Of a stretch of 64,000 nt of DNA, positions 49 to 58,770 are shown in pieces. Made by a program: the position numbers and the translations under genes. The stretch comes from Candidatus Aenigmarchaeota archaeon LH_S6 (GTDB taxonomy: Archaea; Aenigmatarchaeota; Aenigmatarchaeia; QMZS01), in contig JAGXOK010000001.1 in the NCBI GenBank assembly GCA_023659935.1, forward strand, positions 9,569 to 73,568, read 5' to 3'. Each line of letters opens with the position of its first letter. Position 1 is the stretch's first letter. The notes beneath the pieces are model-generated. The model was not told where the DNA came from and did no database searches. It worked only from the letters and a program-made list of their open reading frames with translations.

Positions 49-1506
49 ATGAAAAAAATAAATATATTTGGAAAACAAATTTCAGCAATAATTTTAGGAT
101 TAACCTTAATGGCAGCTTTGGCTTCAGCAGGTCTTTTGACTTATTTCGGGATGATTACAGGAACAGCAGAGGTTAGCCAATCAGTAACTTTAGATAATAA
201 GCAATGCGGTGGATCTTTCCCAGAATGTATAGTAGAAGGAGCATGGAATGGAGCTACTACAGCAGGAAATACAATTATAGACGCACACAACTTAAGCAAT
301 AATGCAGAAGTTCCAGCAACAGTAGACTTCAACACAACTTGTGAGAATTCAATAGGGGCTGATAGTTTATCACCAAGTACAGATGAATACATAGATTGGG
401 CAACTCATTGTGATGGAATAACAACAAGATATGTAGAGTACTTTGACGATGCAGGAGCAGATTTGAATAGTTATGAAGCACCAGCAACAGCAGATTGTGA
501 TATAACAGTAGATACTTCTGGAAGTATTCAAACTGCAATAAGTGGTGCAAATTCTGGCGATACAATTTGTGTGGAAGCGGGGACTTATGATGAGACAATA
601 CTGATAAATAAAAATGTAAACCTTGCAGGGGCAGGCACTGATAATACAACTATTGACGCATCAGGTGTAGAAGTGCAGGCGGCAATAAATGCCTACTCCC
701 AGTCCTCCGTCTCTGCCGTAGCGATTACCGCGAGTGATGTCACATTTCAGGGTTTTACAGTGAAGAATGCTGGAGTAGGTGTTTCTGGTGTTGACGCTAG
801 AGGCATATTCGTAGGTGGACAGTCAGATCTCACTGGTGTCAAACTGCTGAATAACAAAGTGATAAATAGCGAAGCTAGTGGAATACAGGTCCAATACGCT
901 GAGGTCGAGGTAAAGGATAACGAGGTGACCAACAACCAGTGGGACGGCTTTGTAAGCTTTAACCTCGAGATTAGCACCATCTCGGATAATATCTTCTCCA
1001 ACAACGGACCTAGCGAGCAAGAAGGTTGGAACGATGCTGGGATAGAAGTCGGATTGGTTGACGGCGCTACTGTAGCCATTTCCAGCAATACCATAAAGAA
1101 TAATGGAGGTAGTGGCCAGTCCAATGGTGTCGGCATTTACCTCAGAGAGGGCATCACTGCCAATGAAGATGTCACCATTGAGCAGAATGTCATCAACACG
1201 AACGGAGACTATGGCATCCTATCTAAAGCCAACCCTTCCAAGATAGATATCCACTACAACAACATTGTCAATAATGGTGAATACGGTGTAAAGAATAACA
1301 TAGCGAATGACCTTGATGCCACCAATAACTGGTGGGGCACAGATGGTATAAGTGTTTCAGAAAATGTAAATGCAGATTGGATGACAAAGACAGATATGAC
1401 ATTGGCAGCAGGAGAAACAGATTACTTCGGAATAGTTAACGAATTCGATATTGCTTTGATTCCAGATAGCTATACAATAAGAACAAAAGTTATTCCAGTA
1501 CAGTAA
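49..1506 (+). CDS. secreted protein with right-handed parallel beta-helix repeats
   Basis: N-terminal hydrophobic signal/TM segment. Many G/N/T/V-rich repeats typical of the pectin-lyase/NosD-like beta-helix fold. Confidence 0.45.
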   Translation: MKKINIFGKQISAIILGLTLMAALASAGLLTYFGMITGTAEVSQSVTLDNKQCGGSFPECIVEGAWNGATTAGNTIIDAHNLSNNAEVPATVDFNTTCENSIGADSLSPSTDEYIDWATHCDGITTRYVEYFDDAGADLNSYEAPATADCDITVDTSGSIQTAISGANSGDTICVEAGTYDETILINKNVNLAGAGTDNTTIDASGVEVQAAINAYSQSSVSAVAITASDVTFQGFTVKNAGVGVSGVDARGIFVGGQSDLTGVKLLNNKVINSEASGIQVQYAEVEVKDNEVTNNQWDGFVSFNLEISTISDNIFSNNGPSEQEGWNDAGIEVGLVDGATVAISSNTIKNNGGSGQSNGVGIYLREGITANEDVTIEQNVINTNGDYGILSKANPSKIDIHYNNIVNNGEYGVKNNIANDLDATNNWWGTDGISVSENVNADWMTKTDMTLAAGETDYFGIVNEFDIALIPDSYTIRTKVIPVQ

Positions 1507-1602
1507 GTTTGGTAAACTAAATAGCTGAAAAAGATTTTTTTTTCTTTTTTTTTAATTTTTTAAATTTAAAATGCTGAAAACCCGAGAGGGGATAAATTTA
1601 AT

Positions 1603-3966
1603 ATGAGAGGAAAAACCAGGAAGTTTAGGGTAAATTTAAATTTATTTGCAGTCCTGTTTATCTCTTTTTTTCTTGTTAATATTGGTTTTGGTGCCACTTT
1701 GGATTCCTATGGGACAGTTTCCGGCACAATTACAATTTTGGATAATGTCCCGCCGGAAATTTCAAATGTTACTTATCTTGTTGCGACCCCTGGAGAGCCA
1801 AATAACAGGAGTGTAATAATTAGGTGGGAAACAGGTGAAAAGGCAGATTCTACTGTTGAATTTTTGGAAGGGGGGAGTTGGTCTGTTAAGGCAAGTAATT
1901 CTTCTTTTGTTGAAAACCACAAAATAAAAATCTCCGGGCTTTCTGAAGGAAACTACACTTTCAGAGTAAATAGTTCAGATGATGAAGGCAATAGTGCAGT
2001 TTCTGGTAATTACAGTTTCACAATTGAAAAGATGAAAGAAATTAGTGGGCATGTTGTGATTAATGAAATAAGTTTAGGGGCAAATAATTTTGAATGGGTG
2101 GAATTGTATAATCCCACAGAAGAAGATATAAATTTTAGTGAAAAAGTTCATCTTGTATATTATTCTTCAGGCAGGGATTGGAATGATTCTTATAGACCTG
2201 CAGAAAAGAAATTATCTGGAATTATTCCTGCCAAAGGTTTTTATTTGGTTAAAATTGATGGGAATGGCACAACTGGAAAACCAGATTTAGAACCAACTCC
2301 AGATTATGACTGGGATTATAAGGGAGATGCAGATACTTTATCTAATAGCGATGGCACAGTAGCAATTTTCCCTTTTGACCCAGACATAAAAAACGCTGAA
2401 GTAGCAAAAACAGGAAGAATAGATGCTGTTGCTTGGGGTGAAGTAAATCTTAAAGAAGGCTCTTCTGCACTAGTCCCACAAAAAAATAAAAGTATTGAAA
2501 GAAAACTCCATGGCTATGATACAGATAACAATTCCGCAGATTTTGTTATCAGGGAAACACCAACCCCGACAAATTCAAGCCCTCAACAAGTGCAAGAAGC
2601 AGATATTGTTTTAAACGAGTTCCTGCCAATTGCCGGGAATTATTCTGAATTTATTGAATTTTACAATAAAGGAAGTGGCTCTGCAAATATGGAAAACTGG
2701 ACAATTGAAACAAACAACCACAACATTACAATAAATGAAAGTATTCTGTTGGCTGGATTTGAAAACACAACGATTGGAGCAGAGGGTTCTGACAGTGAAT
2801 GGCTTGTTATTGATTTATCAAAAGTTGGGGGTAATTTACTTAGAGAAAATGACACAATAACTCTTTATGATAATGAAAGCAGGGAAATAGATAAAGTATC
2901 CTACACAAATGCGACAATGCAGGATAAATCTTATGCAAGAATGCCCGATGGAGAGCCAAACTGGGTTGACCCACTTCCTACTCCAGGGAAACCCAATAAA
3001 CTGGAAAATCAAATAATAGGGGAACAGATTAATGAAACAGGAGGAAATCAAACCGTAAACCAATCTATCAATAATACTGCAAATCAGACTTATAACATGA
3101 CCAATCTAACTTCAAACCAGACAGAAGGAAATGACACAAATTTAACAGAAAATATAACTTATAACGGAACAAATCAGACAAATTCAACCTGTAAAGAAAA
3201 CCAAACTGGAAATCAGACAGAAGGAGCAAATGAAACCAAGCCAAGAATAACAATAATTTCTCCTGAAAATAAAATTTATAACCTTACAGAAATAGAATTA
3301 ATTGTTGAAACTAGAGGAGAAATCCAGGAATTGTGGTATTCTTTGAATAATGAGGAAAATGTGAGCTTTGAAGCAAATACAACAATAAATACCCGAGAAG
3401 AAACAAATTATCTTGTTGTCTATACAAACACAAGTTTTGGGGTTATAAATGAAGAAGTATATTTCTCTGTTAATATTTCCGGGGAGGATTTGGGTAAGGG
3501 TGAAGAAGACTTAACTAATAACTTAACAAACCAGAGTAATCAAACACAAAACAATCAACCAGATAATGATACTATTTCTCCAGATGTAAGTAACACTTCA
3601 AATAATTCAGTTACACAAGGAAATGACTCAGATGAGATAAACAATCAATCAAATACTCCTGAGGAGATGGAAATGGTTGAGGAGGATTCTGGGGAAGAGG
3701 AGCCTTTAGATGACAAACAGGAGGAAACAGGAGAAAGTGAGCAGGTACATTCTTCAGAAGAAGAATTACAGGAAGAAACTGGTTCTGAAGAAGAAGGAAA
3801 TTCAGATGTTGAAAAAGACGATAAAATTGAGGATGAAAGGAAAACTGCGAAAGTTGAAGAAGAAGTTGAGGGTGTTGAAATGGTTAATAATGTAGATCCG
3901 GAGGAGGAAACCGAAGAATATAAAAAAGAAGTTAAGGAAGCTGTAGGTTCAGGGGGTGGAAAATGA
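1603..3966 (+). CDS. surface protein with two lamin-tail domains, N-glycosylation-sequon-rich stalk and acidic C-terminal tail
   Basis: Signal peptide. Two LTD signatures (VVINEISLGANNFEWVELYNPT and IVLNEFLPIAGNYSEFIEFYNKG). A long N-x-S/T-rich Asn/Thr region. Glu-rich C-terminus. Stop overlaps the next start (ATGA). Confidence 0.55.
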   Translation: MRGKTRKFRVNLNLFAVLFISFFLVNIGFGATLDSYGTVSGTITILDNVPPEISNVTYLVATPGEPNNRSVIIRWETGEKADSTVEFLEGGSWSVKASNSSFVENHKIKISGLSEGNYTFRVNSSDDEGNSAVSGNYSFTIEKMKEISGHVVINEISLGANNFEWVELYNPTEEDINFSEKVHLVYYSSGRDWNDSYRPAEKKLSGIIPAKGFYLVKIDGNGTTGKPDLEPTPDYDWDYKGDADTLSNSDGTVAIFPFDPDIKNAEVAKTGRIDAVAWGEVNLKEGSSALVPQKNKSIERKLHGYDTDNNSADFVIRETPTPTNSSPQQVQEADIVLNEFLPIAGNYSEFIEFYNKGSGSANMENWTIETNNHNITINESILLAGFENTTIGAEGSDSEWLVIDLSKVGGNLLRENDTITLYDNESREIDKVSYTNATMQDKSYARMPDGEPNWVDPLPTPGKPNKLENQIIGEQINETGGNQTVNQSINNTANQTYNMTNLTSNQTEGNDTNLTENITYNGTNQTNSTCKENQTGNQTEGANETKPRITIISPENKIYNLTEIELIVETRGEIQELWYSLNNEENVSFEANTTINTREETNYLVVYTNTSFGVINEEVYFSVNISGEDLGKGEEDLTNNLTNQSNQTQNNQPDNDTISPDVSNTSNNSVTQGNDSDEINNQSNTPEEMEMVEEDSGEEEPLDDKQEETGESEQVHSSEEELQEETGSEEEGNSDVEKDDKIEDERKTAKVEEEVEGVEMVNNVDPEEETEEYKKEVKEAVGSGGGK

Positions 3967-5756
3967 AGAATAAATTTTTTTTGATTGGATTAATCACAAT
4001 TTTGCTAGTTTCAAATATTAATTTTGCTTCTGAAATTTATCCTTCTATTTATGATAACATTAAAGTGGAAAAGAGCATCTCTGAGAGTCTTGTTGCAGGC
4101 TCAACAGACCAGATTAAAATCTCTTTTGAAAGTTTAGTCCCAGTAAATAACACACTAGTTGTAATGGTAAATATTAGTTCTGAAATACCAATAGAGTCAA
4201 ATGATTTTCAAATAAAAGGAAAATTAAATTCAACAATTATAAATACAGATTACTCAGAAATAAAAAATTTTTCCTGCTCTCAACTAAGCACAAAACCGGG
4301 AATATTTTACTGCCTGAATCTAACTGATATAGAAGTAAAAAATTGTTATGAACAAGGAAATATAACAATTTGTAATGTTACTGGAAATAAAACAAATCCA
4401 GTTTTACCTTTATCTGAAAATAAACTAATTTTAAATGTAACTCCAAATATAGCTCTAAAACCAGTGGATTATTCTTTTAAGGTCGGACTTTTTTCCGGGA
4501 TAAGAATTGAGAATATATTAAAAGAAAATCAAACTATAACTTTAAGGAAAAATATATCAAACTCTACAAAATTCTTAAATGAACTTTTGGAACTTAATCT
4601 AACTTCAGAAGAAAATAAAACCATATCTTTAAATTTAACTTTCTACAATCTTAGTTTGAAAAACTTAAACCTGCCCGGGATTTCAATTCCTATTTTATTT
4701 GACCTTTCTGCAAATGACACAGAGAACCTATCAAATATAGAGATAAATATTAATTACAGTAAAATTGGATTACCTTCAAATTTTAATGAATCCAGTATGG
4801 AATTATACTATTATAATAAGACCACCTACACTTGGGAGAAAATAGAAGATTATAGTGTAAATAAAACCGGAAAATATATCTGGGCAAAGTTACCTCATTT
4901 AAGTTTATATGGAGCATTTGGAGAGAAAATTATTATTCCAGATATTTATACTGCAGGTGGAGGTCACCCTGTAGAATTAAGAAAATCCTATTTAACAATA
5001 ACCCCAACAGGAGCAACAATGGAGCAAAATAAAACCAGAGATTTTGAGATAGAAGTCAGAAATATTGGGAACAGGGATATAGAAAGTTTTGAAGTGGTTG
5101 CAGAGGATTCTGAAGTAGAAAAATGGATTAATATAACTCCAAGTGAGGAAAAATTAGGGGTTGGAGAGATAAAATTCTGGACAATGACAGTTTCTGTCCC
5201 CTCTGAGGCAGAACCTGGAGTTAAAGGTTTCACAATTTATGCAAAAGGAGATAAACTCTCTTTATCTGTTAATTTTACCTTAACAATTGTAAAGAAACCA
5301 GAAGTTTTTATAAAAGAAGAAAAACCAGAAATTCCTGAAAATATAACTGGTCTGGCTCCAACCAACCTAACAGTTGTAATCAATGATGGAGTAGAAACAA
5401 CAAATTCCAGAAATGTAACTTTAACTTTCTCAGCAACAAATGCAACACAATGCAGATTGAATAATGATGGAATAAGCTGGAGTAACTGGTTCAATTATAC
5501 AAAAACAAGAGATTGGACTTTATCAGAAGCCCCGGGAACAAAAACAGTTTATTACCAGTGCAGGAATAAATTTGGTAATTCAACAATTGTTTATGACACA
5601 ATAGATTTTGTTGCTCCAAAAACAACTCTCCCAACAGGTTATGCTATTTTAACAAACCCTGCTATTTTAGGTTCAATAATTGGAGGAATTTTATTGGCAA
5701 TATTGGCTTTCTTGAGGTATAGAAGAAAACTTGGGATAAACAAGGAGTTAAAATAA
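3963..5756 (+). CDS. secreted glycoprotein-like surface protein with C-terminal transmembrane anchor
   Basis: Signal peptide and many N-x-S/T sequons. C-terminal hydrophobic helix followed by RYRRK. Translationally coupled to the upstream LTD protein gene. Confidence 0.45.
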   Translation: MKNKFFLIGLITILLVSNINFASEIYPSIYDNIKVEKSISESLVAGSTDQIKISFESLVPVNNTLVVMVNISSEIPIESNDFQIKGKLNSTIINTDYSEIKNFSCSQLSTKPGIFYCLNLTDIEVKNCYEQGNITICNVTGNKTNPVLPLSENKLILNVTPNIALKPVDYSFKVGLFSGIRIENILKENQTITLRKNISNSTKFLNELLELNLTSEENKTISLNLTFYNLSLKNLNLPGISIPILFDLSANDTENLSNIEININYSKIGLPSNFNESSMELYYYNKTTYTWEKIEDYSVNKTGKYIWAKLPHLSLYGAFGEKIIIPDIYTAGGGHPVELRKSYLTITPTGATMEQNKTRDFEIEVRNIGNRDIESFEVVAEDSEVEKWINITPSEEKLGVGEIKFWTMTVSVPSEAEPGVKGFTIYAKGDKLSLSVNFTLTIVKKPEVFIKEEKPEIPENITGLAPTNLTVVINDGVETTNSRNVTLTFSATNATQCRLNNDGISWSNWFNYTKTRDWTLSEAPGTKTVYYQCRNKFGNSTIVYDTIDFVAPKTTLPTGYAILTNPAILGSIIGGILLAILAFLRYRRKLGINKELK

Positions 5757-13349: not shown

Positions 13350-14543
13350 TTACTCTAATTTCTTTTTTAGATAAATTCTCTCAATTCTTTCCATTTTTTT
13401 GAATTTATCCAGTTTTTTAATTACTTCTTGGGGCAATGTTTCAAAAACTCTTGACAATTTAAAAGTATCTAATCTAGATAATTCGTTCCACAGGTTATTT
13501 TCTCTTATTATTTTTTCAACTTGTTCTCTTTTTTCATCATTCTTCCTAGGAAAAGTTGCAACATCTTTCACCCAGATTCTTGAGATACAACCAGAGCCAT
13601 TAACAGAAGTCACTCCTTCTCTTTTACTATATTTTATAAGAGCCTCTTTTACCTGCTCAATTTCAGAATCAATTTTATTAAGAAATCTTTCCCTCTCATT
13701 TTTAAGTTTTACATATTTATTCACCAAATTCACTCCTGGTTCCCCAAGGAATTTGTTTGATTCAAGAGATTCTGTTTTTACCAAGTGTTTCTGTTCTGGG
13801 CATATATCCCTAAACTCGCACCAGTTGCAAAGATTTGAAACTTTTTGCTTAAATTCTTTTTCTTTTTCTATTCTTTTTATTAATTCTATTGTGTCTGATT
13901 TTAATTTTTCAAGTTCTCTCTCTGTTTTTTCTATAGTAACCTCCTTGTCTGCGGACAGAAAATGCCAAACTAATTTTACTCTTTTTGCATCCTGATAATT
14001 TTTAAGAACTGCAATTGCATAAAGAGCAAGCTGCCTGTCCCTATGCAAATATTCTTCTCGAGGAAGTTCAAAACTTGTTTTGTAATCATGAATTTCATAT
14101 TCTCCTTTTCCTGTTGACATAAGTCTGTCAATGAATCCCTGTAATTTGTATTTTCCTTCCAGGTCAAGGGAAATAATTACTTTTTTCTCAAGACCTATTA
14201 TTTTCCCTTTATCAAATGGATAATATCTATTATAATAATCCTTAAGATATTGCTCGCCCATTTTCTTGAAGTTCTCCTTGGTATATTCTTTTTTTACAAT
14301 CAGGATTGAATCATTCCAGTTTTTATTCCACAACCTGTTGTAAAATTGTAGTATTTCTTTAAGAGAATTTTCTTTCTTAAATTTAATATCTTTGTACACT
14401 TTTTTAAGAGTCATATGAACCATATTTCCCATAAATGCCTCCACACCCTGCTGAATCTTTGGCTCTAATCTATCTATATATTTGAATTTAAATTTCAGTG
14501 GACACTGCTCAAAACAGGAGAGCCTTGAATGTGAATAAATCAT
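13350..14543 (-). CDS. PD-(D/E)XK nuclease, Cas4/AddB-like with Fe-S cysteine cluster and K/E-rich C-terminal extension
   Basis: N-terminal YSHSRLSCFEQCPLKFKFKYI. The pattern D...EIHDYKTS. QLALYAI (the QxxxY motif). C-terminal CNWCEFRDICP. Confidence 0.6.
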   Translation of the reverse strand: MIYSHSRLSCFEQCPLKFKFKYIDRLEPKIQQGVEAFMGNMVHMTLKKVYKDIKFKKENSLKEILQFYNRLWNKNWNDSILIVKKEYTKENFKKMGEQYLKDYYNRYYPFDKGKIIGLEKKVIISLDLEGKYKLQGFIDRLMSTGKGEYEIHDYKTSFELPREEYLHRDRQLALYAIAVLKNYQDAKRVKLVWHFLSADKEVTIEKTERELEKLKSDTIELIKRIEKEKEFKQKVSNLCNWCEFRDICPEQKHLVKTESLESNKFLGEPGVNLVNKYVKLKNERERFLNKIDSEIEQVKEALIKYSKREGVTSVNGSGCISRIWVKDVATFPRKNDEKREQVEKIIRENNLWNELSRLDTFKLSRVFETLPQEVIKKLDKFKKMERIERIYLKKKLE

Positions 14544-16800: not shown

Positions 16801-19533
16801 ATGGTAAACAAACTATATGTATTTTTAGGTCTGGTAGTTTTAGTCTTTGGATTATCTTTAGCAGTTGCCCAGGAAAATATTGGTGAAGAGAGTAATATTA
16901 TACCAAATGCTACATCTAGAGAGGGCCTCCCTAGTGAAGAAGGTAATGTTACTTTGGAGGGAGCGGCATTTCCAGTTCCCCATTCTCTTAAGGACGATAT
17001 CTCCCAATATAGACGAAGCATGCCTGAGCTTCCTGTTAATGCGTTTCTTTTGGTTGCGAAAGATAATCTTTCCTTGGTCTTCACTCATGAAAAAGTGAGT
17101 AAAGGTCTTGCCACTGTTGAGGGTAAAAAACTTTCTTACAATCTACCCTGGAAAAATACTGAATTGTCAGTGATAAAAGCAGATACTGTATCGGTTAGAA
17201 AAGAGGGCGATCCAGCTACAATCAATGATATACTGTCAAACCCAGATGCATATAGGCTGGAACTTGTTAAACTAGACACCACACTAAGACAAGTCTCCAC
17301 CCTTTATGACCCTGATGATGGTTCTGGGATTGAATTTCCCATAACAACTGGCGTAGTCGTTAACTCCCCACGGAATCCTGTAGATTTCGTTGATGATATG
17401 TCCAGAAAGGTTAGAGAATTTCATGATAATCCTTCCAGAAGTGTTGCTGACAGGCTTCTTGGAGATACTCCAAGGCAACATCTATATACTTTTAATTTCC
17501 AGGAAGATTTCTGGATTGATTCTAAAGCAGAGGTCAATGGTATAGTCTTATATCCCCAAGGTACAGTTGTTGATTTGATCGAGAACCTAGAGACAAGCGA
17601 ACTCGAACTCGTTCATACAGATAAAAATGTACTGCTTTACGTTGTAAAAACTGATATGAAGGCTACACATGTTACGTCTGTAAATGAGATAACCACTCAT
17701 TCAAAGAAATACATGGGAAAAGTTGTCAAATTTACCGCCTTTGGTAAAGGTGGAACCACCAGCATCCAAGAGATGATCAAGAAATCTGGGAAATATCCTC
17801 CAGTAGATGTTCTTCTACATGGAGTTGTTGCATGGAACAGTATTAGTGTACCACCAGAGAGAAATGATATCATTTTAACTACTGGTGCCTCATCTCATCA
17901 CCAGGACAGGGTCTTTGCGCCTGTTGAGGGTAAATTTAACTACATTGGAAAAATCGTTTCGTCCAAGCAGGTCAACGAATCATTGCCAGAAGGATTAGCT
18001 CTAATTACTTATGCTAGGAATAAAACAGGTGAATTGGATTATGAAAAGTTACCAGAGTCCGCTAAAGAGATGATCAAAAGGGAGTACTCCAACCTAAATG
18101 CATCTCTAGGGGGTGCTGCTCCAATCGAAATATCTACCCCTAAAGAGACGGCTCCAACCCCCACTGCAACACCTACTGCAACTCCGACACCTACACTACA
18201 ATCTCATTATCCAGGGAAATGTACTCAATTAGAAGACTTGATAGAAAAGAAAAAACATTATGAACGTTTATATAACTTATCTGAGGAAGAACTTGAGGAG
18301 AAGGGATATAGTAAAGGAAGAGAAGGTATTAAAAAAGTACTGGAAAAACTTGAAGAAAGAATTAGAAATATTAAACCAGAGTGTGAAAATTATACAAATT
18401 ATACAGCTTATACAAATAGATGTGCTGAATTAGAAGACTTGATAGTAAAGAAAAAACATTATAAACATTTATATAGCTTATCTGAGGAAGAACTTAAAAA
18501 GACGGGATATCCTCAAGGAAGAGAAGAGGTTAAAAAAATACTAGAAAAACTTGAAGAAAGAATTAGAGAATGTGAAGAAGTTAGATCTCGGGTAATTCAG
18601 GGAAACATATCTAGAATTAATGGTACGCCAAAGTATACAAATAGATGTACTCAATTAAAAGACTTGATAGTAAAGAAAAAACATTATAAACATTTATATA
18701 ACTTATCAGATAGAGAACTTAAGAAGAGAGGAGATAAAGGAAGAGAAGAGGTTAAAGAAATACTAGAAAAACTTGAAGAAAGAATTAGAGAATGTGAAGA
18801 AATTACAGCCAGATCTGGTGGTAGAAAAGGTCAAGGTGTTAATGTTTCTCAAGAGAGATACCCTGTAGTAAAACCTAGTAATGTAAGTATAACAAAACCT
18901 ATAGTAGCAGAATCCGGAAGGGAGATAACAGATTATTACACATCTAAAATCACCACCATAATGAAAAAAGAAACAAATGTAGAACAACAGGTAAAAGAAC
19001 TAAAAGAATTGAGAAATGAAGTTGATAAATTAATAGAAGAATTGATAAAAAGTAAAGATGAAATAAATACTGAAGAAGTGGATGAGTTGGTTTCAAAAGT
19101 AAAAATAAAACCCGGTAAAATAAAAGCTGATAATGCTATTGTAAATTCTACTAATAAAACAATAATAACAAAAGTCAATAAAAAGAATCTAACAATAAAA
19201 CCAACAAAATTGCATGTTACTATCCAAGAGGGAAAATATGAAATAAAAGCTCCTGAAATAAAGGTACAAAACAAGACATTAGTAGTTGGAAACTCTACTG
19301 TTAAACTTACAGCAAGTGATATTGTAGAAAAAACCAAGGTTGAGCCAAAAGATATTGAACTGAAAGAGGAAAATGCAAAAGCAGTCTATAAGATTAAAGC
19401 AGATGAAAACAGAAAATTGTTTGGATTTATTCCAGTAAAAGTTGAGAAAGATATGACTGTAGATGCTGGGGATAGAGAAGTAAAAGTTCTTAAAGAAAAG
19501 AGGCCTTGGTGGAGTTTTTTAACATCCAAATAG
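16801..19533 (+). CDS. secreted 910-aa protein with PT-rich linker, three tandem ~70-aa Cys-containing repeats and K-rich C-terminal region
   Basis: Signal peptide. PTPTATPTATPTPT linker. Three repeats beginning C(T/A)(Q/E)L(E/K)DLI(E/V)KKKHY at about nt 18221, 18421 and 18643. Coiled-coil and Lys-rich tail. Confidence 0.5.
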   Translation: MVNKLYVFLGLVVLVFGLSLAVAQENIGEESNIIPNATSREGLPSEEGNVTLEGAAFPVPHSLKDDISQYRRSMPELPVNAFLLVAKDNLSLVFTHEKVSKGLATVEGKKLSYNLPWKNTELSVIKADTVSVRKEGDPATINDILSNPDAYRLELVKLDTTLRQVSTLYDPDDGSGIEFPITTGVVVNSPRNPVDFVDDMSRKVREFHDNPSRSVADRLLGDTPRQHLYTFNFQEDFWIDSKAEVNGIVLYPQGTVVDLIENLETSELELVHTDKNVLLYVVKTDMKATHVTSVNEITTHSKKYMGKVVKFTAFGKGGTTSIQEMIKKSGKYPPVDVLLHGVVAWNSISVPPERNDIILTTGASSHHQDRVFAPVEGKFNYIGKIVSSKQVNESLPEGLALITYARNKTGELDYEKLPESAKEMIKREYSNLNASLGGAAPIEISTPKETAPTPTATPTATPTPTLQSHYPGKCTQLEDLIEKKKHYERLYNLSEEELEEKGYSKGREGIKKVLEKLEERIRNIKPECENYTNYTAYTNRCAELEDLIVKKKHYKHLYSLSEEELKKTGYPQGREEVKKILEKLEERIRECEEVRSRVIQGNISRINGTPKYTNRCTQLKDLIVKKKHYKHLYNLSDRELKKRGDKGREEVKEILEKLEERIRECEEITARSGGRKGQGVNVSQERYPVVKPSNVSITKPIVAESGREITDYYTSKITTIMKKETNVEQQVKELKELRNEVDKLIEELIKSKDEINTEEVDELVSKVKIKPGKIKADNAIVNSTNKTIITKVNKKNLTIKPTKLHVTIQEGKYEIKAPEIKVQNKTLVVGNSTVKLTASDIVEKTKVEPKDIELKEENAKAVYKIKADENRKLFGFIPVKVEKDMTVDAGDREVKVLKEKRPWWSFLTSK

Positions 19534-25265: not shown

Positions 25266-26117
25266 GTATTTTAATCCTTATTTTACTGGATCTATTTCTA
25301 AAACTGCCATATCTCCTACTACATCATCAGAACTCTCCGTTGCGTTTCAATCCTTATTTTCATGGACCTATCTCTAAAACAGAAAATTTAGAAAATCTGG
25401 CTGAAGAGTATGGTATGTTTCAATCCTTATTTTCATGGACCTATCTCTAAAACTTTCTTTTAGGTCTATGTTTCCCCCCATTCCAGCATGTTTCAATCCT
25501 TATTTTACTGGACCTATCTCTAAAACATTAGATACAAGGGAGAGAAAGCTTGAAGAATCTAAAGTTTCAATCCTTATTTTACTGGACCTATCTCTAAAAC
25601 AGGAATGCGCTCCAGAATCTATCATTACTTTTCCTTGTTTCAATCCTTATTTTACTGGACCTATTTCTAAAACACAAAGGACTTAGAGGGAACATAAAAT
25701 ACAAAACCCTGTTTCAATCCTTATTTTCGTGGATCTATTTCTAAAACTAACTCTGGAGGACGGGTTCAACGCAACTTCTGATGGTTTCAATCCTTATTTT
25801 ACTGGATCTATCTCTAAAACGAGACAGGGAAAAACCAACAACCAACACCATATCACGTTTCAATCCTTATTTTACTGGATCTATCTCTAAAACGCAACCC
25901 TTTTCAAGGTAATTGTTGAAAAAGGTCTGCACCTCAAAAACTAAAATAACAGAGTTATCACCCTGTTTTGGCTTTAGCCTTTTTAATTTACAATACCCAT
26001 AAAAGGCTCATTCAATCCTTATTTTACTGGACCTATCTCTAAAACTGTATTTTCAAGAAGGAAAAACCTTATCTCTTCTCGTTTCAATCCTTATTTTACT
26101 GGACCTATCTCTAAAAC
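25266..26117 (-). CRISPR. CRISPR array of 11 repeats; 37-nt repeat GTTTCAATCCTTATTTTACTGGACCTATCTCTAAAAC on the + strand; 35-39-nt spacers
   Basis: Repeats at 25266 (degenerate), 25344, 25417, 25490, 25564, 25637, 25711, 25784, 25857, 26010 (5'-truncated) and 26081. The reverse complement starts GTTTTAGAG and ends ATTGAAAC (a typical 8-nt 5' handle), so it is probably transcribed from the minus strand. That places the leader at 26118-26677 beside cas6 and makes the degenerate 25266 repeat the terminal one. Confidence 0.85.
25894..26009. repeat. 116-nt X element inside the CRISPR array between repeats 9 and 10 (second copy at 23627-23743)
   Basis: Too long to be a spacer. It holds two hairpins (ccttttcaa..ttgaaaagg and agccttttta..taaaaggct). 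The adjacent repeat is 5'-truncated. Confidence 0.7.
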
Positions 26118-26550: not shown

Positions 26551-26664
26551 TTTGGGTGTTGGCCTTTTGATAGATTTAACCAATAAAGGCTGACTCTTTT
26601 TTTATTGACCAATTTTGTAGTTTGGGTGTTGGCCTTTTGATAGATTTAACCAATAAAGGCTGAC
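26551..26664. repeat. tandem duplicated 44-bp hairpin unit (period 70 bp) in the CRISPR leader / cas6 3' region, carrying a TTAACCAA loop motif
   Basis: TTTGGGTGTTGGCCTTTTGATAGATTTAACCAATAAAGGCTGAC occurs at 26551-26594 and 26621-26664. Confidence 0.8.
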
Positions 26665-26677
26665 AAGGGTTGCATAT

Positions 26678-27328
26678 TTAAACTGATTTAACTGTTCCAA
26701 AACCCTGTGAAACTCCTTTACCCAATCCAATAAATTCAGGTAATTTAAAATTGATTTTAAAATCACCAGTAAAACCAATCATAGGTACTTCTTTATATAC
26801 AACCGAGACAGGTTTAACTTTTGTCTTGACTTTTAATTCAGACAAAACAACATATTCAAATGCTTTTGCAACAGAAAGAATATTTCCAATCAGGACCTTG
26901 TGCAATAGCAATGTCTGTTCTTTTTTATTTAAACTATTATACTCTTTATAATTCTTCTCATTCAAAGCTATCCATGGTATGACAAACCTATATTTTCTCT
27001 CTTTTTCACTAAAACAAAAGTTCTGATATTTTTCTATTGTCTTTTTTTCTACAATTTTGTAACTGCTTGTTCCCAATTTAAGGTTGTCAAACTCATTCGA
27101 AATATTTTTTAAAGCAGTTGCACCCTCATTAATACCTAAAATAACTGGAGTGCCTTCTATTACTTTGTATTGTACTAGTGGATAAGTATATAGATAATTT
27201 TTCTCCAGATGATGATGTAAGATTGGTTCATCTCTAAATTTATTCCCAACAAAACCGCGGAGAAATGTTCCGGATTCTTTAACAGGTTTATTTGTTTTCA
27301 GAATTAAAGTATAAATTAAAAGTTCCAT
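26678..27328 (-). CDS. cas6: CRISPR-associated endoribonuclease Cas6
   Basis: Adjacent to the array on the inferred leader side. C-terminal glycine-rich loop GLGKGVSQGFGTV. RRM-like size of 216 aa. Confidence 0.65.
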   Translation of the reverse strand: MELLIYTLILKTNKPVKESGTFLRGFVGNKFRDEPILHHHLEKNYLYTYPLVQYKVIEGTPVILGINEGATALKNISNEFDNLKLGTSSYKIVEKKTIEKYQNFCFSEKERKYRFVIPWIALNEKNYKEYNSLNKKEQTLLLHKVLIGNILSVAKAFEYVVLSELKVKTKVKPVSVVYKEVPMIGFTGDFKINFKLPEFIGLGKGVSQGFGTVKSV

Positions 27329-28395: not shown

Positions 28396-28695
28396 ATGGT
28401 AATCGATGTTGGAGAATCTTCAGATTTTGATGAAAGCAAAGAAGAAAAGCCTACAAAGGAAATTCCTGCATTTATGGAGGAATTAGTTGATTTAGTAAGA
28501 AAGAAATTTGAAGCACAGAATGAGCAGATAGAGAGATTAAAGGCAGAGGTTGGGATGATTAAAGAAAATGAAATTGAAACTTTTAGTAAGAAAGTAGTAG
28601 AACTAGAAAATAAAATAAAGTCTTTAGAAAATAAACTAGAGAAACAAAAACCAAATATTAATGACAAGATTCTTGATGGTCTGAAAAGAGTTTGA
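28396..28695 (+). CDS. hypothetical coiled-coil protein
   Basis: Heptad-like E/K-rich sequence. Confidence 0.3.
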   Translation: MVIDVGESSDFDESKEEKPTKEIPAFMEELVDLVRKKFEAQNEQIERLKAEVGMIKENEIETFSKKVVELENKIKSLENKLEKQKPNINDKILDGLKRV

Positions 28696-28968
28696 TTTTT
28701 TTTTGGGTTTATTTTTTCATAAAATCTACTGTAATTAGAAAATATCTGTTCCTGCAAAAATCTAATCAGGGAACTGGAAAATTATAAATATAGAGTCTCA
28801 AAGGGTTCTATTCAGGAATTACCTGTTAAATCAGAGAACGATGCTGTTGACAGTTTACGCTATAGGCTTTTTTCTTATAATCTCTCAAATCAGCAATCTT
28901 CAGAATTATGTGATGATGTTGTTAGTTGAAATTGGTAAGAATAACTTTTATAAATAATTTTATATATT

Positions 28969-29790
28969 ATGACCGTTTGTATATCTGCAATTTGTTGTGA
29001 TAACAAGCATGAAGATCCAAAAATTATAGTATCTTCGGATAGAATGATTACAACGGAATTGGGAGCCCCTGTCGAATATGAAGGAACAAGTACAAAAATT
29101 AGTGAACTGACCTCTAGCTGCGTTGTATTGTCGGCTGGAGTCACAACTTGGATAGAAGACCTTGTATACCGAACTAAACAAGCTATTAAAAATGAAAATA
29201 CTCTGGTTATTCGGGGAATTGCAAAAAAATGTGCTAATGCCTATATCGAGCTTATTCAAGATAATATTAAAAGACTTATTCTTAGTACTTATAATATGAG
29301 TTTTGAAGAGTTTAAAGATCAACAAAAATATAATTCTAGTTTTTTAGCAGAAGTAAACAAAAGTATTTCATTAACCAGACAAACTATAGGAGATAATTTA
29401 GCTTCATTAATTGCAGGCATTGATAAAAATGGTGCTGATATTTTTGGGATTAACAATGGCAATTTTTATCCATTTACCTCATTAGGTTACCAAGCATTAG
29501 GAAGTGGTCAAGCGTCAGCAGAATCAGTTTTTGTTCATAGGGGATATGATACTAAATGGGATCTTAAAAAAGCTATAATAACATTAATAGAAGCGAAAAA
29601 ACAAGCAGAAGAAGCTCAAGGAGTGGGAAAAAATACAGATATTGTTATTATATCAAGGGATGGAATAAAATACCTAGAAGAAGGAACAATTGAAGAACTT
29701 GAAAAAATCCACAGGGAATTAATGAATAAAATATCAGATACTAGAGATGAAGTAATTAAAGATAAATTAAATAAGTTAGATATATTATGA
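28969..29790 (+). CDS. proteasome beta-type (Ntn-hydrolase) homolog, propeptide-less with C-terminal coiled-coil extension
   Basis: Starts MTVCISAI (Thr2, as in HslV/Anbu). The following positions line up with those of the T. acidophilum proteasome beta subunit: SSDRMIT (the D17 region), GTSTKISEL (K33), VLSAGVTTWIEDLV, ALGSGQASAESVFV (the GSGS loop) and GKNTDIVIISRDG. Confidence 0.55.
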   Translation: MTVCISAICCDNKHEDPKIIVSSDRMITTELGAPVEYEGTSTKISELTSSCVVLSAGVTTWIEDLVYRTKQAIKNENTLVIRGIAKKCANAYIELIQDNIKRLILSTYNMSFEEFKDQQKYNSSFLAEVNKSISLTRQTIGDNLASLIAGIDKNGADIFGINNGNFYPFTSLGYQALGSGQASAESVFVHRGYDTKWDLKKAIITLIEAKKQAEEAQGVGKNTDIVIISRDGIKYLEEGTIEELEKIHRELMNKISDTRDEVIKDKLNKLDIL

Positions 29791-29796
29791 GAATGA

Positions 29797-29937
29797 AAAG
29801 AAGAGAAAAACTTGGTTTAAGGCACATATCCGAATTTGAGTTAATGGGTATTAGGTTTGAAGAACTCGGAGAAGAACTTGTAAAGAGGAGAGAACTGGAG
29901 AGAAAACTGGAAGAATTAAAAAAGTAATTTTTTAATT
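29797..29937 (+). CDS. small 46-aa charged protein translationally coupled (ATGA) to the proteasome-like gene
   Basis: MRMKRREKLGLRHISEFELMGIRFEELGEELVKRRELERKLEELKK. Below the ORF-track size cut-off. Confidence 0.2.
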
Positions 29938-30085: not shown

Positions 30086-30221
30086 AGCCACGGGAGGGAC
30101 TTGAACCCCCAACCTGCGGTTTACAAAACCGCTGCTCCACCAGTTACCCCAACCTTTTATTTTCCTATCGACGCTTTTTGATGGACTTAACCAATAAAAG
30201 GGTTGATTGAGCCACCGTGGC
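30086..30221 (-). tRNA. tRNA-Thr (anticodon TGT) with a ~63-nt D-loop intron (about 30144-30206)
   Basis: Minus strand: gccacgg-tg-gctc-aa[intron]ctggtg-gagc-a-gcggt-tttgtaa-accgc-aggtt-ggggg-ttcaagt-ccctc-ccgtggc-t. The acceptor stem pairs perfectly and the discriminator is U, as is common for Thr. The intron contains the TTAACCAATAAAAGG motif on the opposite strand. Confidence 0.6.
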
Positions 30222-37600: not shown

Positions 37601-39343
37601 ATGAGAGGAGTTGTGATTACTAAGATACAGGGAGTTATTTTCGTATTAATTTTTTTAGTGGTTATATTTTTAATTATTACCTATCTTTTCTCAGGACAAG
37701 AAAAAGAAGGCTTTATGAATTTACCAAGAGGAGTCGGGATTTCTTTGGAATCAGCAGATACAAAGATTTTTGTTTTACCTCCAGTTGTCTGGTTTGGAAA
37801 AACTCTTGGTTTGAATGTAAATTCTGTAAATTTTGATGAGGTGTTTGATGAGGATAATAGTAAATCAACAGATTTTATTTTCCCTACCAATAATGTTTAT
37901 ATAAAAAAGCCTACAACTGGAGGGGCCTTGACAGCTTTGGAATTAATATTTTTTTCTAACCCGACTGTTATAGTATTATCTGATGTGTTAGGCTTTTCAG
38001 GAAATATAGATTTTAAATTCAAAACCACTAAACCAATTTCTCCTGTAATTGCATTTTATCCTTTAGTTACTGATAATTTTGATTCTCTAGTTTCTAATGC
38101 ACCCGCAAAATCTGATTCAATAAATGGACAAGATATCTACTATCTAAATTCTAAAAAACCCTTCGGCTCTGTAAATTTTACTTTAACAATTGATCCAAAA
38201 GAACTTTACAAACATTATAGCCTAAAAAATGAAAAATTTGATAAAGCCAAAGCAGATGAAAATATAAAATTATCTGTTAGTTATTTTACTGATAAGAGCT
38301 CAGAAAAATATTATAATTCCAAAACAGTTGAACTTGGGATAGGTAAAACAAAACTAGGGAATTTGGATGGAAAGGATTATGAAATTACATTAACAAGTTG
38401 CTGTGATCCTCCTGAATTAAAAGTTGAATATGGTGGGGGAACAGAAACAGGAATCCTTATTAAAAATGAAATCGTAACAATAGCTGGATTAGATATCTAT
38501 ACAAAAAAAGCGGAACATAGGGATACAGAAGTTCAAGTAGGTGCAGCAAGAACTATAAAGGATTTAATAGATAGTGGAGAGTGTAAAGAAGATTCTGATA
38601 AATATAATTGCTCTTTTAGTTTTAATACTAGTGAGAAATGTTGTCCAGATTATGTATATATAAAACCAATTTTCAGAGTAAACTTAAGTAAAGGAAAGTT
38701 ACAGAGGTGGAAAGAAGAGGAAATAGATCCAATATATTTCCAGATTGTTTATTACTTAGATGTCCTTGAAGATAAAGATTTTATTTTTGAGAATTTTAAA
38801 GATATTCAAAATTTATATAAGGAAGAAGATGAAGATAAAGTAAGTCCTGTTAAAGATATTTTAATTTATCCTTGTAGGGCAATAGCAAGATTAGATAAAG
38901 GTCAAATTTCCCTATTACCGTCAAGAGTTAAAAGTTTTGATAAAAAAATAATTGACTGGAGTGAATGTGAGTCTGCAACCAGTAATTTTATTCAACTAAA
39001 ATATAAGAATTTGTATCAGAACTCTACTTGGTTTTGTAAAAATTCTGGAGGAGATTACCTTCTTTACAATCCTTATGCTTTCTGCAGACTTAATGGAGAA
39101 GGGTTGCCAGAAATCCCAACTCCTACATATTTACAGGGAATAATTCCAAGCGGGAATCTTTCTGTTAAATGGGGACCTTGGATAATACCAGATGTAACTT
39201 ATAAGGAATATCATGAAGCTGCTTTAATCTGGGCCTTTCATATGATTGATACTGTCACAGAGACTTTAAAAAATGGCGGTAATATAAACTTCCCAGAGGA
39301 TGATACTATTGGTATAATAAATGTTACCTATAATTTTAATTAA
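37601..39343 (+). CDS. secreted/membrane-anchored Cys-containing hypothetical protein
   Basis: N-terminal TM helix. No recognisable domain. Confidence 0.4.
   Translation: MRGVVITKIQGVIFVLIFLVVIFLIITYLFSGQEKEGFMNLPRGVGISLESADTKIFVLPPVVWFGKTLGLNVNSVNFDEVFDEDNSKSTDFIFPTNNVYIKKPTTGGALTALELIFFSNPTVIVLSDVLGFSGNIDFKFKTTKPISPVIAFYPLVTDNFDSLVSNAPAKSDSINGQDIYYLNSKKPFGSVNFTLTIDPKELYKHYSLKNEKFDKAKADENIKLSVSYFTDKSSEKYYNSKTVELGIGKTKLGNLDGKDYEITLTSCCDPPELKVEYGGGTETGILIKNEIVTIAGLDIYTKKAEHRDTEVQVGAARTIKDLIDSGECKEDSDKYNCSFSFNTSEKCCPDYVYIKPIFRVNLSKGKLQRWKEEEIDPIYFQIVYYLDVLEDKDFIFENFKDIQNLYKEEDEDKVSPVKDILIYPCRAIARLDKGQISLLPSRVKSFDKKIIDWSECESATSNFIQLKYKNLYQNSTWFCKNSGGDYLLYNPYAFCRLNGEGLPEIPTPTYLQGIIPSGNLSVKWGPWIIPDVTYKEYHEAALIWAFHMIDTVTETLKNGGNINFPEDDTIGIINVTYNFN

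Positions 39344-56481: not shown

Positions 56482-58770
<2,289 letters not shown>

What the first reader, a model, noticed from the sequence alone, without database searches (positions are those of the whole stretch)
28969..29937. Divergent proteasome beta-like Ntn hydrolase without propeptide, with coupled 46-aa ORF
The protein aligns along its length with the 20S beta subunit. The Thr1, D17 and K33 equivalents, the GSGS loop and the C-terminal GxxDIVIISRDG all line up. It starts directly at Met-Thr, as in HslV and Anbu. It has a 6-9-residue insertion after the first strand and a ~55-aa coiled-coil C-terminal extension. There are no alpha-subunit or PAN genes nearby. A tiny charged ORF is translationally coupled (ATGA). 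It may be the organism's beta subunit in an unusual form, or a stand-alone HslV/Anbu-like protease.
Basis: partly seen in the sequence, partly recalled or inferred. Interest (0 to 1): 0.55.

Follow-up and report, generated by a model that had tools for sequence, protein, structure and literature searches.

The report
Mobile proteasome-like protease with small partner
This is a real but very divergent relative of the proteasome's catalytic subunit; it is not the cell's own proteasome but part of a 1-kb, two-gene mobile cassette (protease plus a tiny helical partner protein) found next to integrases and defence genes in archaea and bacteria, and its job is still unknown.

Summary
A 273-aa ORF (28969-29790) starts Met-Thr. 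It keeps the proteasome Thr1/Asp17/Lys33/Gly47/GSG residues, and its stop overlaps (ATGA) the start of a 46-aa ORF (29787-29927).

The idea that it is the organism's beta subunit is not supported.
- It scores 27 bits against the archaeal PsmB model, whose cut-off is 224.
- The same 1,055-bp unit (28878-29932, 96.6% identical) sits in an unrelated defence island beside a decayed integrase.
- A 77%-identical copy sits beside an intact integrase.

The protein belongs to a large uncharacterised family: 417 50%-identity clusters at E<=1e-30, from archaea and Actinobacteria. Thr1, Asp and Lys are invariant in the 94 members I aligned. The family lies closer to 20S alpha and beta subunits than to HslV. 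It most likely corresponds to the WPH, ACC or PHI proteasome homologs catalogued by Fuchs et al. (2021), but I could not test that directly.

Every assessable locus (16 lineages) has a small same-strand ORF directly downstream. Its sequence is conserved within clades. Neighbours are mostly integrases, transposases, restriction-modification genes, toxin-antitoxin genes and CRISPR.

Best reading: a stand-alone N-terminal-threonine protease with a small helical partner, carried as cargo by mobile elements. Its role is probably in genetic conflict or element regulation.

The parts
28878..28968 (+). Conserved 5' non-coding part of the mobile cassette. It presumably holds the cassette's own promoter. 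It is AT-rich with TATA-like runs, but the exact promoter was not resolved.
   Evidence: blastn: the window matches L001, whose genomic context is unrelated, only over 28878-29932 (96.6% identity). The flanks diverge abruptly.
28969..29790 (+). Gene for the 273-aa proteasome-like N-terminal-threonine (Ntn) hydrolase. Key codons: Thr2 at 28972-28974, Asp24 at 29038-29040, Lys43 at 29095-29097, Gly-Ser-Gly 178-180 at 29500-29508. The C-terminal amphipathic helix spans residues 238-269.
   Evidence: ORF. Family of 417 clusters at E<=1e-30. Profile match to 20S beta at 9e-15 and alpha at 5e-13. AF2 model with pLDDT 85 and a proteasome fold. Invariant T, D and K.
29787..29927 (+). Gene for the 46-aa partner protein, with an ATGA overlap onto the protease stop codon. 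It is charged and predicted to be a single long helix.
   Evidence: Conserved as MRMKxxxxGxKxxSxFExxGIxF downstream of proteases 50-92% identical to this one. A small same-strand ORF follows the protease in all 16 assessable lineages, with clade-specific conservation. Single-sequence AF2 predicts helix 2-45.
29928..29933 (+). T6 run immediately after the partner's stop codon. It marks the right end of the mobile unit (homology ends at 29932) and is a plausible archaeal oligo-T terminator.
   Evidence: Sequence. Right boundary of homology to L001 and L004. The terminator function is inferred.
30086..30153 (-). tRNA-Thr(UGU) gene whose 3' end lies 153 bp from the cassette. This is context, not part of the cassette: it is a plausible former integration target of the element that delivered it.
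   Evidence: Rfam tRNA, 32 bits. ARAGORN calls tRNA-Thr(tgt) at the same place in L002. The integration role is inferred.

Best explanation
**What it is.** The locus is a self-contained, horizontally mobile two-gene cassette of about 1.06 kb, with its own upstream region and a T-run at its end.

**Gene 1.** It encodes a stand-alone proteasome-fold hydrolase.
- Methionine aminopeptidase removes Met1 and exposes Thr as the N-terminal nucleophile.
- That Thr works with the Asp17 and Lys33 equivalents (D24, K43) and the Gly47 equivalent of the oxyanion hole (G57), as in 20S beta subunits.
- Compared with a beta subunit it has a longer S1-S2 hairpin, a helical insertion of about 34 residues in the H1-H2 region, and a C-terminal amphipathic helix of about 32 residues.
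- In Anbu the corresponding helix (H5) forms inter-subunit coiled coils.

**Gene 2.** It encodes a small, fast-evolving, single-helix partner made in step with the protease through the ATGA overlap. It most likely binds the protease as a regulator, inhibitor, assembly factor or dedicated substrate.

**Role.** The pair is not the housekeeping proteasome. It is cargo of integrase-bearing elements and defence islands. It probably acts in conflict (defence, exclusion or addiction) or in regulation of the mobile element.

**Shown:** the fold, the conserved catalytic residues, the separateness of the family, the mobility of the cassette, the conserved partner gene, and the association with mobile elements and defence genes.

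**Inferred:** catalytic activity, oligomeric state, physical interaction with the partner, and the biological role.
For: **Fold and catalytic residues.**
- AF2 model pLDDT 85 and pTM 0.81.
- Foldseek top hits are 20S alpha and beta subunits, E about 1e-12.
- The family profile matches M. jannaschii 20S beta at 9e-15 and alpha at 5e-13.
- T2, D24 and K43 are invariant in 94/94 members, G57 is present in 92/94, and 92/94 start MT.

**Separate family.**
- PsmB model: 27 bits against a cut-off of 224.
- HslV: 15 bits.
- 417 clusters at E<=1e-30, all about 265-290 aa.
- Members come from haloarchaea and from actinobacterial MAGs.

**Mobility.**
- Window 28878-29932 matches L001 at 96.6% with unrelated flanks.
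- In L001 the cassette follows a GmrSD-domain gene (Pfam GmrSD_N), an HKD-Snf2 helicase and a type IIG restriction-modification enzyme (PADLOC E=4e-201). A decayed integrase follows it, homologous to the intact integrase next to the 77%-identical copy in L004.

**Partner gene.**
- A small same-strand ORF lies directly downstream in 16 of 16 assessable lineages.
- It is conserved within clades. The relatives closest to the window (low-GC contigs) share MRMK..G.K..S.FE..GI.F. One haloarchaeal group shares SAxE+RxAMGL followed by an acidic LEE(L/F). The actinobacterial group ends in RDLSP(L/M)GR.
- The chance rate of such an ORF in this genome is about 15%.

**Neighbourhoods.** Integrases, resolvases, IS elements, RelE/MqsA, McrBC, type ISP and type IIG restriction-modification genes, CRISPR, and upstream HTH genes.
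Against: - No biochemical or oligomer evidence was obtainable.
- The HMM alignment places Ala216 and Val219 at the proteasome Asp166 and Ser169 positions. The active-site support network therefore differs, although a nearby Glu214 is conserved in 86 of 94 members.
- The AF2 model is poor at residues 27-37, a loop that lines the substrate pocket in proteasomes.
- The helical insertion could block ring assembly. Fuchs et al. raise the same concern for PHI and PMI.
- The partner shows no detectable similarity between clades, so 'one conserved partner family' is not proven.
- In high-GC genomes a downstream ORF is expected by chance fairly often.
- One haloarchaeal locus (L018) lies among ordinary chromosomal genes.
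- No member matches PADLOC or PHROGs models. No copy was found in the phage or plasmid record collections. Only 2 distant hits were found in IMG/VR.
Confidence: 0.6

Rival explanations
1. It is the host's housekeeping 20S beta subunit in an unusual, propeptide-less form.
For: It keeps Thr1, Asp17, Lys33, Gly47 and GSG, and its best PDB relatives are archaeal 20S beta and alpha subunits. The window has no canonical psmB. A Cdc48-type unfoldase gene is in the window.
Against: The PsmB equivalog model gives 27 bits against a cut-off of 224. The same gene pair occurs at 96.6% nucleotide identity in an unrelated defence island and next to integrases. Homologs are accessory genes in haloarchaea, which from general knowledge have canonical proteasomes. 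There is no alpha subunit in the window. A 64-kb window is only a fraction of the genome, so the absence of psmB here says little.
Confidence: 0.03
2. It is a regulatory protease of the mobile element, analogous to the ImmA/ImmR or RecA-LexA logic. It would cleave the element's repressor or another regulator to switch the element's state, with the small partner acting as sensor or inhibitor.
For: The pair sits beside the integrase or recombinase and small HTH genes at the element's edge in several loci. These include a wHTH gene (HVO_A0261_N) and an integrase in L004-L007, DUF433 and an integrase in L016, XRE-type HTH_3 genes directly upstream in L021 and L022, and a large serine recombinase directly upstream in L020.
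Against: The cassette also moves alone, without any HTH gene or intact integrase, as in the window and L001. The upstream regulators belong to different families in different clades. No cleavage target was identified.
Confidence: 0.15
3. The small ORF is the dedicated substrate. It would be a precursor or pro-toxin peptide processed by the hydrolase, or a ligation partner as with connectase, rather than a regulator.
For: Gene order and translational coupling are strict. Short conserved motifs lie within otherwise variable peptides: LG(L/I) or MGL after a basic stretch, and the C-terminal RDLSP(L/M)GR. Connectase shows that a proteasome homolog can be a sequence-specific transpeptidase (PMC7980362, cited from its abstract).
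Against: The AF2 model keeps both helix pairs H1-H2 and H3-H4, whereas connectase lacks H1-H2 (PMC8665760). There are no modification or export genes nearby. Nothing indicates cleavage.
Confidence: 0.12
4. It is a catalytically dead structural or chaperone-like proteasome homolog.
For: The Asp166 and Ser169 equivalents are not conserved in the HMM alignment.
Against: Thr1, Asp17 and Lys33 are invariant across 94 members only about 30% identical to one another, 92 of them start MT, and the Gly47 equivalent is present in 92 of 94. That pattern is hard to explain without catalysis.
Confidence: 0.05

Closest known systems
WPH, ACC and PHI proteasome homologs (Fuchs, Alva & Lupas 2021, Bioinformatics 37:4694, PMC8665760)
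   Same: - Uncharacterised prokaryotic proteasome homologs without a propeptide, keeping Thr1, Asp17, Lys33 and Gly47.
- WPH, ACC and some PHI members are predicted to have a C-terminal coiled-coil helix. PHI has a helical insertion.
- WPH and group II families resemble both alpha and beta subunits, as this family does (9e-15 against beta, 5e-13 against alpha).
- ACC is archaeal only. WPH spans archaea and Actinobacteria, which matches the taxa seen here.
   Different: - Which of the three it belongs to, or whether it belongs to any, could not be tested. The representative sequences (WP_161937350.1, WP_040339656.1, WP_012956871.1) were not retrievable.
- That paper reported no informative genomic context. 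Here the gene is always paired with a small downstream ORF and travels as a mobile cassette.
- The family is much larger in metagenomes (417 clusters at E<=1e-30) than the 17-90 sequences listed there.
Archaeal 20S proteasome beta subunit (PsmB, TIGR03634)
   Same: The fold, the catalytic Thr1/Asp17/Lys33, Gly47, the GSG loop and the C-terminal strand motifs. It is the best-scoring solved relative (M. jannaschii beta, E=9e-15 with the family profile).
   Different: - 27 bits against the model's cut-off of 224.
- No propeptide.
- Six extra residues in the S1-S2 hairpin, an insertion of about 34 residues in the H1-H2 region, and a long C-terminal helix.
- Asp166 and Ser169 are not aligned to conserved residues.
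- No alpha subunit partner. The gene is mobile and paired with a small ORF.
Anbu (ancestral beta subunit; PDB 5LOX)
   Same: A stand-alone proteasome homolog that starts at Met-Thr and has an extended C-terminal helix H5. In Anbu this helix forms inter-subunit coiled coils (PMC8665760, PMC5666114).
   Different: - Anbu is bacterial. From general knowledge, it sits in a conserved operon with ATP-grasp, alpha-E and transglutaminase-like genes. None of these appears in any gene table read.
- No Anbu chain is among the 60 best PDB hits of the family profile.
HslV
   Same: An Ntn threonine protease of the proteasome fold that starts at Met-Thr.
   Different: - The family profile scores E. coli HslV at only 15 bits.
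- HslV is about 175 aa, lacks H5 and insertions, and works with HslU. No AAA+ gene is adjacent here.
Phage- and mobile-element-borne proteasome homologs (PPH, AAH) and prophage cargo 'morons'
   Same: Proteasome-fold proteins spread by mobile elements (PMC8665760). The BFVD structural hits are uncharacterised phage proteins plus a few annotated as proteasome subunit or HslV. The cassette is an independent unit with its own upstream region and T-run, placed next to an integrase, as morons are (from general knowledge).
   Different: PPH and AAH are compact, bacterial, group I (HslV/BPH-like) proteins. This family is larger, resembles both alpha and beta subunits, is largely archaeal, and matches no PHROG.

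Membership tests
20S proteasome beta subunit (archaeal PsmB, TIGR03634 / PF00227) | Scores above the curated family cut-off | tested here: not met
   TIGR03634 gives 27.3 bits against a cut-off of 224. PF00227 gives 17.2 bits against 22.4.
20S proteasome beta subunit (archaeal PsmB, TIGR03634 / PF00227) | Catalytic Thr1, Asp17 and Lys33, oxyanion Gly47 and the GSG loop | tested here: met
   T2, D24, K43, G57 and G178-S179-G180 align to these positions. T, D and K are invariant in 94/94 members.
20S proteasome beta subunit (archaeal PsmB, TIGR03634 / PF00227) | Housekeeping chromosomal gene that works with an alpha subunit | tested here: not met
   There is no other proteasome-like ORF in the 64 kb. 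The gene is part of a mobile cassette found in unrelated contexts. The rest of the genome could not be searched.
HslV | Sequence similarity to HslV, a compact subunit of about 175 aa, and an adjacent hslU | tested here: not met
   The family profile scores E. coli HslV at 15 bits, E=0.12. That sequence was recalled from memory and matched deposited E. coli HslV chains over its full length at 375 bits. The protein here is 273 aa with insertions and H5. No adjacent AAA+ gene.
Anbu | Operon with ATP-grasp, alpha-E and transglutaminase-like genes; bacterial distribution | tested here: not met
   None of these Pfam families appears in the gene tables. The window organism is archaeal (PolD, GatD, Cdc48).
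Anbu | Sequence membership in the Anbu cluster | tested here: inconclusive
   No Anbu chain is among the 60 best PDB hits of the family profile, all with E<=1e-7. No direct profile-to-Anbu comparison could be run.
Connectase | Lacks helices H1-H2, has a two-helix lid between S3 and S4, and is restricted to methanogens | tested here: not met
   The AF2 model has H1 (59-73) and H2 (123-143), with no insertion between the third and fourth strands (40-48, 51-58). Family members come from haloarchaea, Actinobacteria and uncultured low-GC organisms whose contigs resemble this archaeal window.
ACC / WPH / PHI (Fuchs et al. 2021) | No propeptide, predicted C-terminal coiled-coil helix, similarity to both alpha and beta subunits | tested here: met
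   MT start in 92/94 members. C-terminal helix 238-269. Beta at 9e-15 and alpha at 5e-13. Feature definitions come from PMC8665760.
ACC / WPH / PHI (Fuchs et al. 2021) | Clusters by sequence with the family representative (WP_161937350.1, WP_040339656.1 or WP_012956871.1) | not testable with these tools
The paper's text and its one held supplement contain no sequences.
Known anti-phage defence systems (PADLOC-DB 2.0.0) | Match to a defence-protein model | tested here: not met
   Among the 94 family members, each of 9 different PADLOC models is hit by exactly one member (E>=1e-3). Neither the protease nor the partner matches any model convincingly.
Type II toxin-antitoxin module | Two co-transcribed small genes in which one product neutralises the toxicity of the other | not tested
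   Only the gene arrangement (coupled pair, mobile-element location) is compatible. No toxicity data can be obtained here.

The most novel reading that the evidence does not exclude
The protease-plus-micro-partner pair may be a previously unrecognised, widespread two-gene conflict module. It would be a defence, exclusion or addiction system whose effector is a proteasome-like threonine protease held in check or targeted by a hypervariable single-helix partner. Integrative elements would spread it across archaea and Actinobacteria. That would give the first biological role to one of the 'orphan' proteasome homolog families.
Probability: 0.25. Interest if true: 0.75.

Novelty: new member of a known kind. 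Interest (0 to 1): 0.55.

Why it matters
Stand-alone proteasome homologs are a catalogued group with almost no known function. Twenty-two such families were described in 2021, with no genomic context that pointed to a role. This locus supplies a context for one of them:
- a strictly conserved small partner gene;
- movement as a 1-kb cassette;
- residence next to integrases, restriction-modification genes, toxin-antitoxin genes and CRISPR.

That turns 'function unknown' into testable hypotheses: a regulated protease acting in defence, addiction or control of a mobile element. It also identifies culturable haloarchaea that carry homologs (Halorubrum, Halobaculum, Halobellus) and so could serve for tests. 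Finally, it warns annotators not to count such genes as an organism's proteasome in reduced archaeal genomes.

Tried and rejected

**Searches that returned nothing useful.**
- tblastn of the window protein and of the Halorubrum homolog against the phage and plasmid record collections: no match.
- PHROGs: no match. PADLOC: no consistent match.
- A search for an 'empty site' or further contexts using the cassette's right flank in metagenome contigs: 0 hits.
- The protein-pattern scan of metagenome contigs gave only 4 loci.
- The viral-contig scan for the bacterial branch gave none.
- Literature searches found no functional study of these families and no defence system that uses a proteasome-like protein.

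**Checks that did not help.**
- No att-like direct repeat of the tRNA was found flanking the cassette.
- The cassette shows no compositional anomaly.
- The sigma-70 promoter and intrinsic-terminator scan is not informative for an archaeon.

**Readings rejected.**
- The 99-aa coiled-coil ORF upstream (28396-28695) is not part of the unit. It is absent from L001 and L004.
- The minus-strand ORFs that overlap the gene (28890-29144 and 28960-29325) are spurious.
Full report
**1. The observation**

The window has a 273-aa ORF at 28969-29790 (+) and a 46-aa ORF at 29787-29927 (+). The protease stop codon and the small ORF's start codon overlap as ATGA. 28969 is the first start codon after an in-frame stop, so a propeptide cannot be encoded.

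As a single sequence the protein is only marginally recognisable:
- Pfam Proteasome gives E=0.004, below the gathering score.
- NCBIfam archaeal beta gives 27 bits against a cut-off of 224.
- PDB proteasome subunits match at E of about 1e-4, over the C-terminal half only.

A profile built from 94 relatives (A2) settles the matter. It matches M. jannaschii 20S beta at E=9e-15 and alpha at 5e-13, and it aligns both halves. T2 falls on Thr1, D24 on Asp17, K43 on Lys33, G57 on Gly47 and G178-S-G180 on the GSG loop. 'GKNTDIVIISRDG' falls on 'GNGISLAVITKDG'. T2, D24 and K43 are invariant in 94/94 members, and 92/94 start MT.

The AF2 model (pLDDT 85, pTM 0.81) has the proteasome sandwich. Foldseek's best PDB matches are 20S alpha and beta subunits, with E about 1e-12 and TM about 0.6-0.7.

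- The C-terminal element is one helix of about 32 residues (238-269), not about 55 aa.
- There is an unnoticed helical insertion of about 34 residues in the H1-H2 region. Profile positions 70-121 correspond to beta residues 64-81, and the model has extra helices at 81-116.

The register shift is real: D24 lies 6 residues and K43 9 residues beyond their M. jannaschii beta counterparts.

**2. It is not the housekeeping beta subunit**

The nearest relative (P0001, 92% identical) is encoded in two unrelated contexts:
- L002 and L003 are syntenic with the window: Cas1-Cas6b-S9-L13-99 aa-protease-small ORF-tRNA-S15-helicase.
- In L001 the pair follows a GmrSD-domain gene (Pfam GmrSD_N), an HKD-Snf2 helicase and a type IIG restriction-modification enzyme (PADLOC E=4e-201).

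blastn shows that the window and L001 share exactly 28878-29932 (1,055 bp, 96.6% identity) and nothing else. The shared unit runs from 91 bp upstream of the ATG to 5 nt past the small ORF's stop codon, inside a T6 run.

A 77%-identical copy (P0002, L004-L007) lies beside an intact tyrosine integrase. L001 carries frameshifted remains of a homologous integrase directly after the cassette. In the window the cassette ends 153 bp from the 3' end of a tRNA-Thr(UGU) gene, and no integrase is present.

The family HMM finds no other proteasome-like ORF in the 64 kb. Ten ORFs of >=164 aa within about 12 kb that had no annotation from the relative's gene table were scanned, and none has an AAA+ domain. 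A Cdc48-type ATPase lies 27 kb away, among ordinary archaeal housekeeping genes (PolD, RtcB, GatD, XPD).

**3. The family**

The word-indexed search found only seven relatives. The exhaustive profile search found 417 50%-identity clusters at E<=1e-30 and 2,559 at E<=1e-10. The best 150 are nearly all 240-300 aa, and most match over almost the full length, including the C-terminal helix.

Named members are 'hypothetical proteins' of Halorubrum tropicale (WP_139042970.1), Halorubrum sp. BOL3-1, Halobaculum, a Halobacteriales archaeon and Halobellus marinus. A large branch occurs in actinobacterial MAGs (Gaiellaceae, Acidimicrobiia). Two distant copies are on IMG/VR contigs.

The profile scores E. 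coli HslV at 15 bits, against 40 bits for T. acidophilum beta and 58 bits for M. jannaschii beta. The HslV sequence was recalled from memory and matched deposited E. coli HslV chains over its full length at 375 bits. No Anbu, BPH or HslV chain is among the 60 best PDB hits. No PHROG or PADLOC model matches the family.

**4. Relation to the literature**

Fuchs, Alva & Lupas (2021, PMC8665760) described 22 new proteasome homolog families. All lack a propeptide and keep Thr1, Asp17, Lys33 and Gly47. Three fit this protein:
- WPH, 'Widespread': archaea, Actinobacteria and others, similar to both alpha and beta subunits.
- PHI, 'Helical Insertion': some members have a coiled-coil C-terminus.

The haloarchaeal accession numbers are lower than that of the ACC representative, so those proteins were probably already in nr when that survey was made and fall into one of these families. 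I could not obtain the representative sequences, so the assignment stays untested.

**5. The partner gene and the neighbourhoods**

In every locus where the 3' flank is available, a same-strand ORF of 36-66 aa (at most 86 aa) starts between 50 nt before and 24 nt after the protease stop codon. This holds for 16 protease lineages: the window clade, L004, L008, L009, L010, L011, L013, L015, L016, L018, L019, L020, L021, L022, L024 and L025.

In sequence of this window's composition, such an ORF is expected about 15% of the time: 14% in random sequence, and 7 of 44 real genes.

The partner's sequence is conserved within clades:
- The closest relatives of the window (low-GC contigs): MRMKxxxxGxKxxSxFExxGIxF, across proteases only 50% identical.
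- One haloarchaeal group (L010, L024, L025): 'SAxE(R/K)RxAMGL', then an acidic '(D/E)LEE(L/F)'.
- The actinobacterial group: a C-terminal '(A/P)(L/V)RDLSP(L/M)GR'.

No similarity is detectable between clades. The window's partner is predicted to be a single long helix, although only by single-sequence AF2.

The neighbours fall into three groups:
- Mobility genes: tyrosine integrases, serine recombinases and resolvases, and IS transposases.
- Conflict genes: RelE/MqsA, McrBC, type ISP and type IIG restriction-modification, SLFN/AlbA_2, HNH and CRISPR-Cas.
- Small HTH genes directly upstream: XRE-type in L021 and L022, a wHTH in L004-L007, and DUF433 in L016.

One locus (L018, Halobaculum) lies among ordinary chromosomal genes.

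**6. Interpretation**

*Shown.* This is a proteasome-fold protein with an intact, strongly conserved catalytic set and an N-terminus that only needs Met removal. It belongs to a family distinct from PsmB, HslV and, as far as could be tested, Anbu. It is always paired with a small co-translated ORF. It moves as a 1-kb unit among integrative elements and defence islands.

*Inferred.* It is an active threonine protease, possibly oligomeric through its C-terminal helix as in Anbu. The partner binds it as a regulator, inhibitor or substrate. The pair serves the mobile element or its host in conflict or regulation.

*Caveats.*
- The Asp166 and Ser169 equivalents are not conserved in the HMM alignment.
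- The 27-37 loop is poorly modelled.
- The helical insertion might preclude rings.
- Neither oligomer nor complex prediction could be run.

*Rivals.* A regulatory protease of the ImmA type, a dedicated-substrate or connectase-like reaction, a dead scaffold, and the housekeeping beta subunit. The last is very unlikely.

**7. Verdict**

'Stand-alone proteasome homolog' is right. 'The organism's beta subunit' is not, and 'HslV/Anbu-like' is only an analogy.

The protein is most likely a new member of an already catalogued but wholly uncharacterised family (WPH, ACC or PHI). What is new here is the conserved two-gene architecture and the mobility of the cassette. Together they give that family its first functional lead.

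Noticed in passing
window 25269-26117 (repeats) and 26678-27328 (-): A CRISPR array of about 12 repeats of 37 nt. Three copies reach the Rfam CRISPR-DR7 gathering score; the rest were located through blastn matches to the single repeat in L002. It lies next to a Cas6b gene (PADLOC Cas6, E=1e-74). The 95%-identical relative L002 instead has Cas1, a Fic gene, a Cas8b-like fragment and only one repeat at this place, so the CRISPR locus is polymorphic between close strains.
   Followed up: partly
window 26551-26594, 26621-26664 and 30162-30205: Two perfect 44-nt direct repeats 70 nt apart lie between the CRISPR array and cas6. A 61%-identical copy sits immediately upstream of the tRNA-Thr gene. 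It may be a shared promoter or leader element; this is unexplained.
   Followed up: no
window 30086-30153 (-): tRNA-Thr(UGU) is found by Rfam (32 bits) but missed by ARAGORN in the window. ARAGORN does call it in L002, which differs by a few substitutions in the acceptor and D-arm region.
   Followed up: partly
window 56482-58770 (-): A Cdc48/VAT-type double-AAA+ ATPase (CDC48_N plus two AAA domains) lies 27 kb from the cassette. It is the only potential unfoldase seen among the 20 largest ORFs scanned and is probably a housekeeping gene.
   Followed up: partly
window 28396-28695 (+): A 99-aa coiled-coil ORF just upstream of the cassette has no family match, only weak coiled-coil noise. It is present in L002 and L003 but is not part of the mobile unit.
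   Followed up: partly
window 16801-19533 (+), 37601-39343 (+), 3963-5756 (+): Large ORFs of 910, 580 and 597 aa with no Pfam match at E<=1e-3 (1e-4 for the 597-aa ORF). At the window start are proteins with a beta-helix domain and a Lamin-tail domain, likely surface proteins (49-3966).
   Followed up: no
window 13350-14543 (-): A 397-aa PD-(D/E)XK nuclease with a weak Cas4 match (DUF2800 and Cas_Cas4 matches), 12 kb from the CRISPR array.
   Followed up: no
L001 743-9070: The defence island next to the second copy of the cassette carries an HKD(PLD)-Snf2 helicase (PADLOC C3a139 / DrmD-like), a 1,260-aa type IIG restriction-modification enzyme, a YopA_M-domain protein and an upstream GmrSD-domain gene (Pfam GmrSD_N).
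   Followed up: partly
L020 5030-5218, L021 7891-8088, L022 7830-8030: In actinobacterial relatives the small partner ends in a strictly conserved '(A/P)(L/V)RDLSP(L/M)GR'. This might be a C-terminal docking motif, by loose analogy to the C-terminal motifs of proteasome activators.
   Followed up: no
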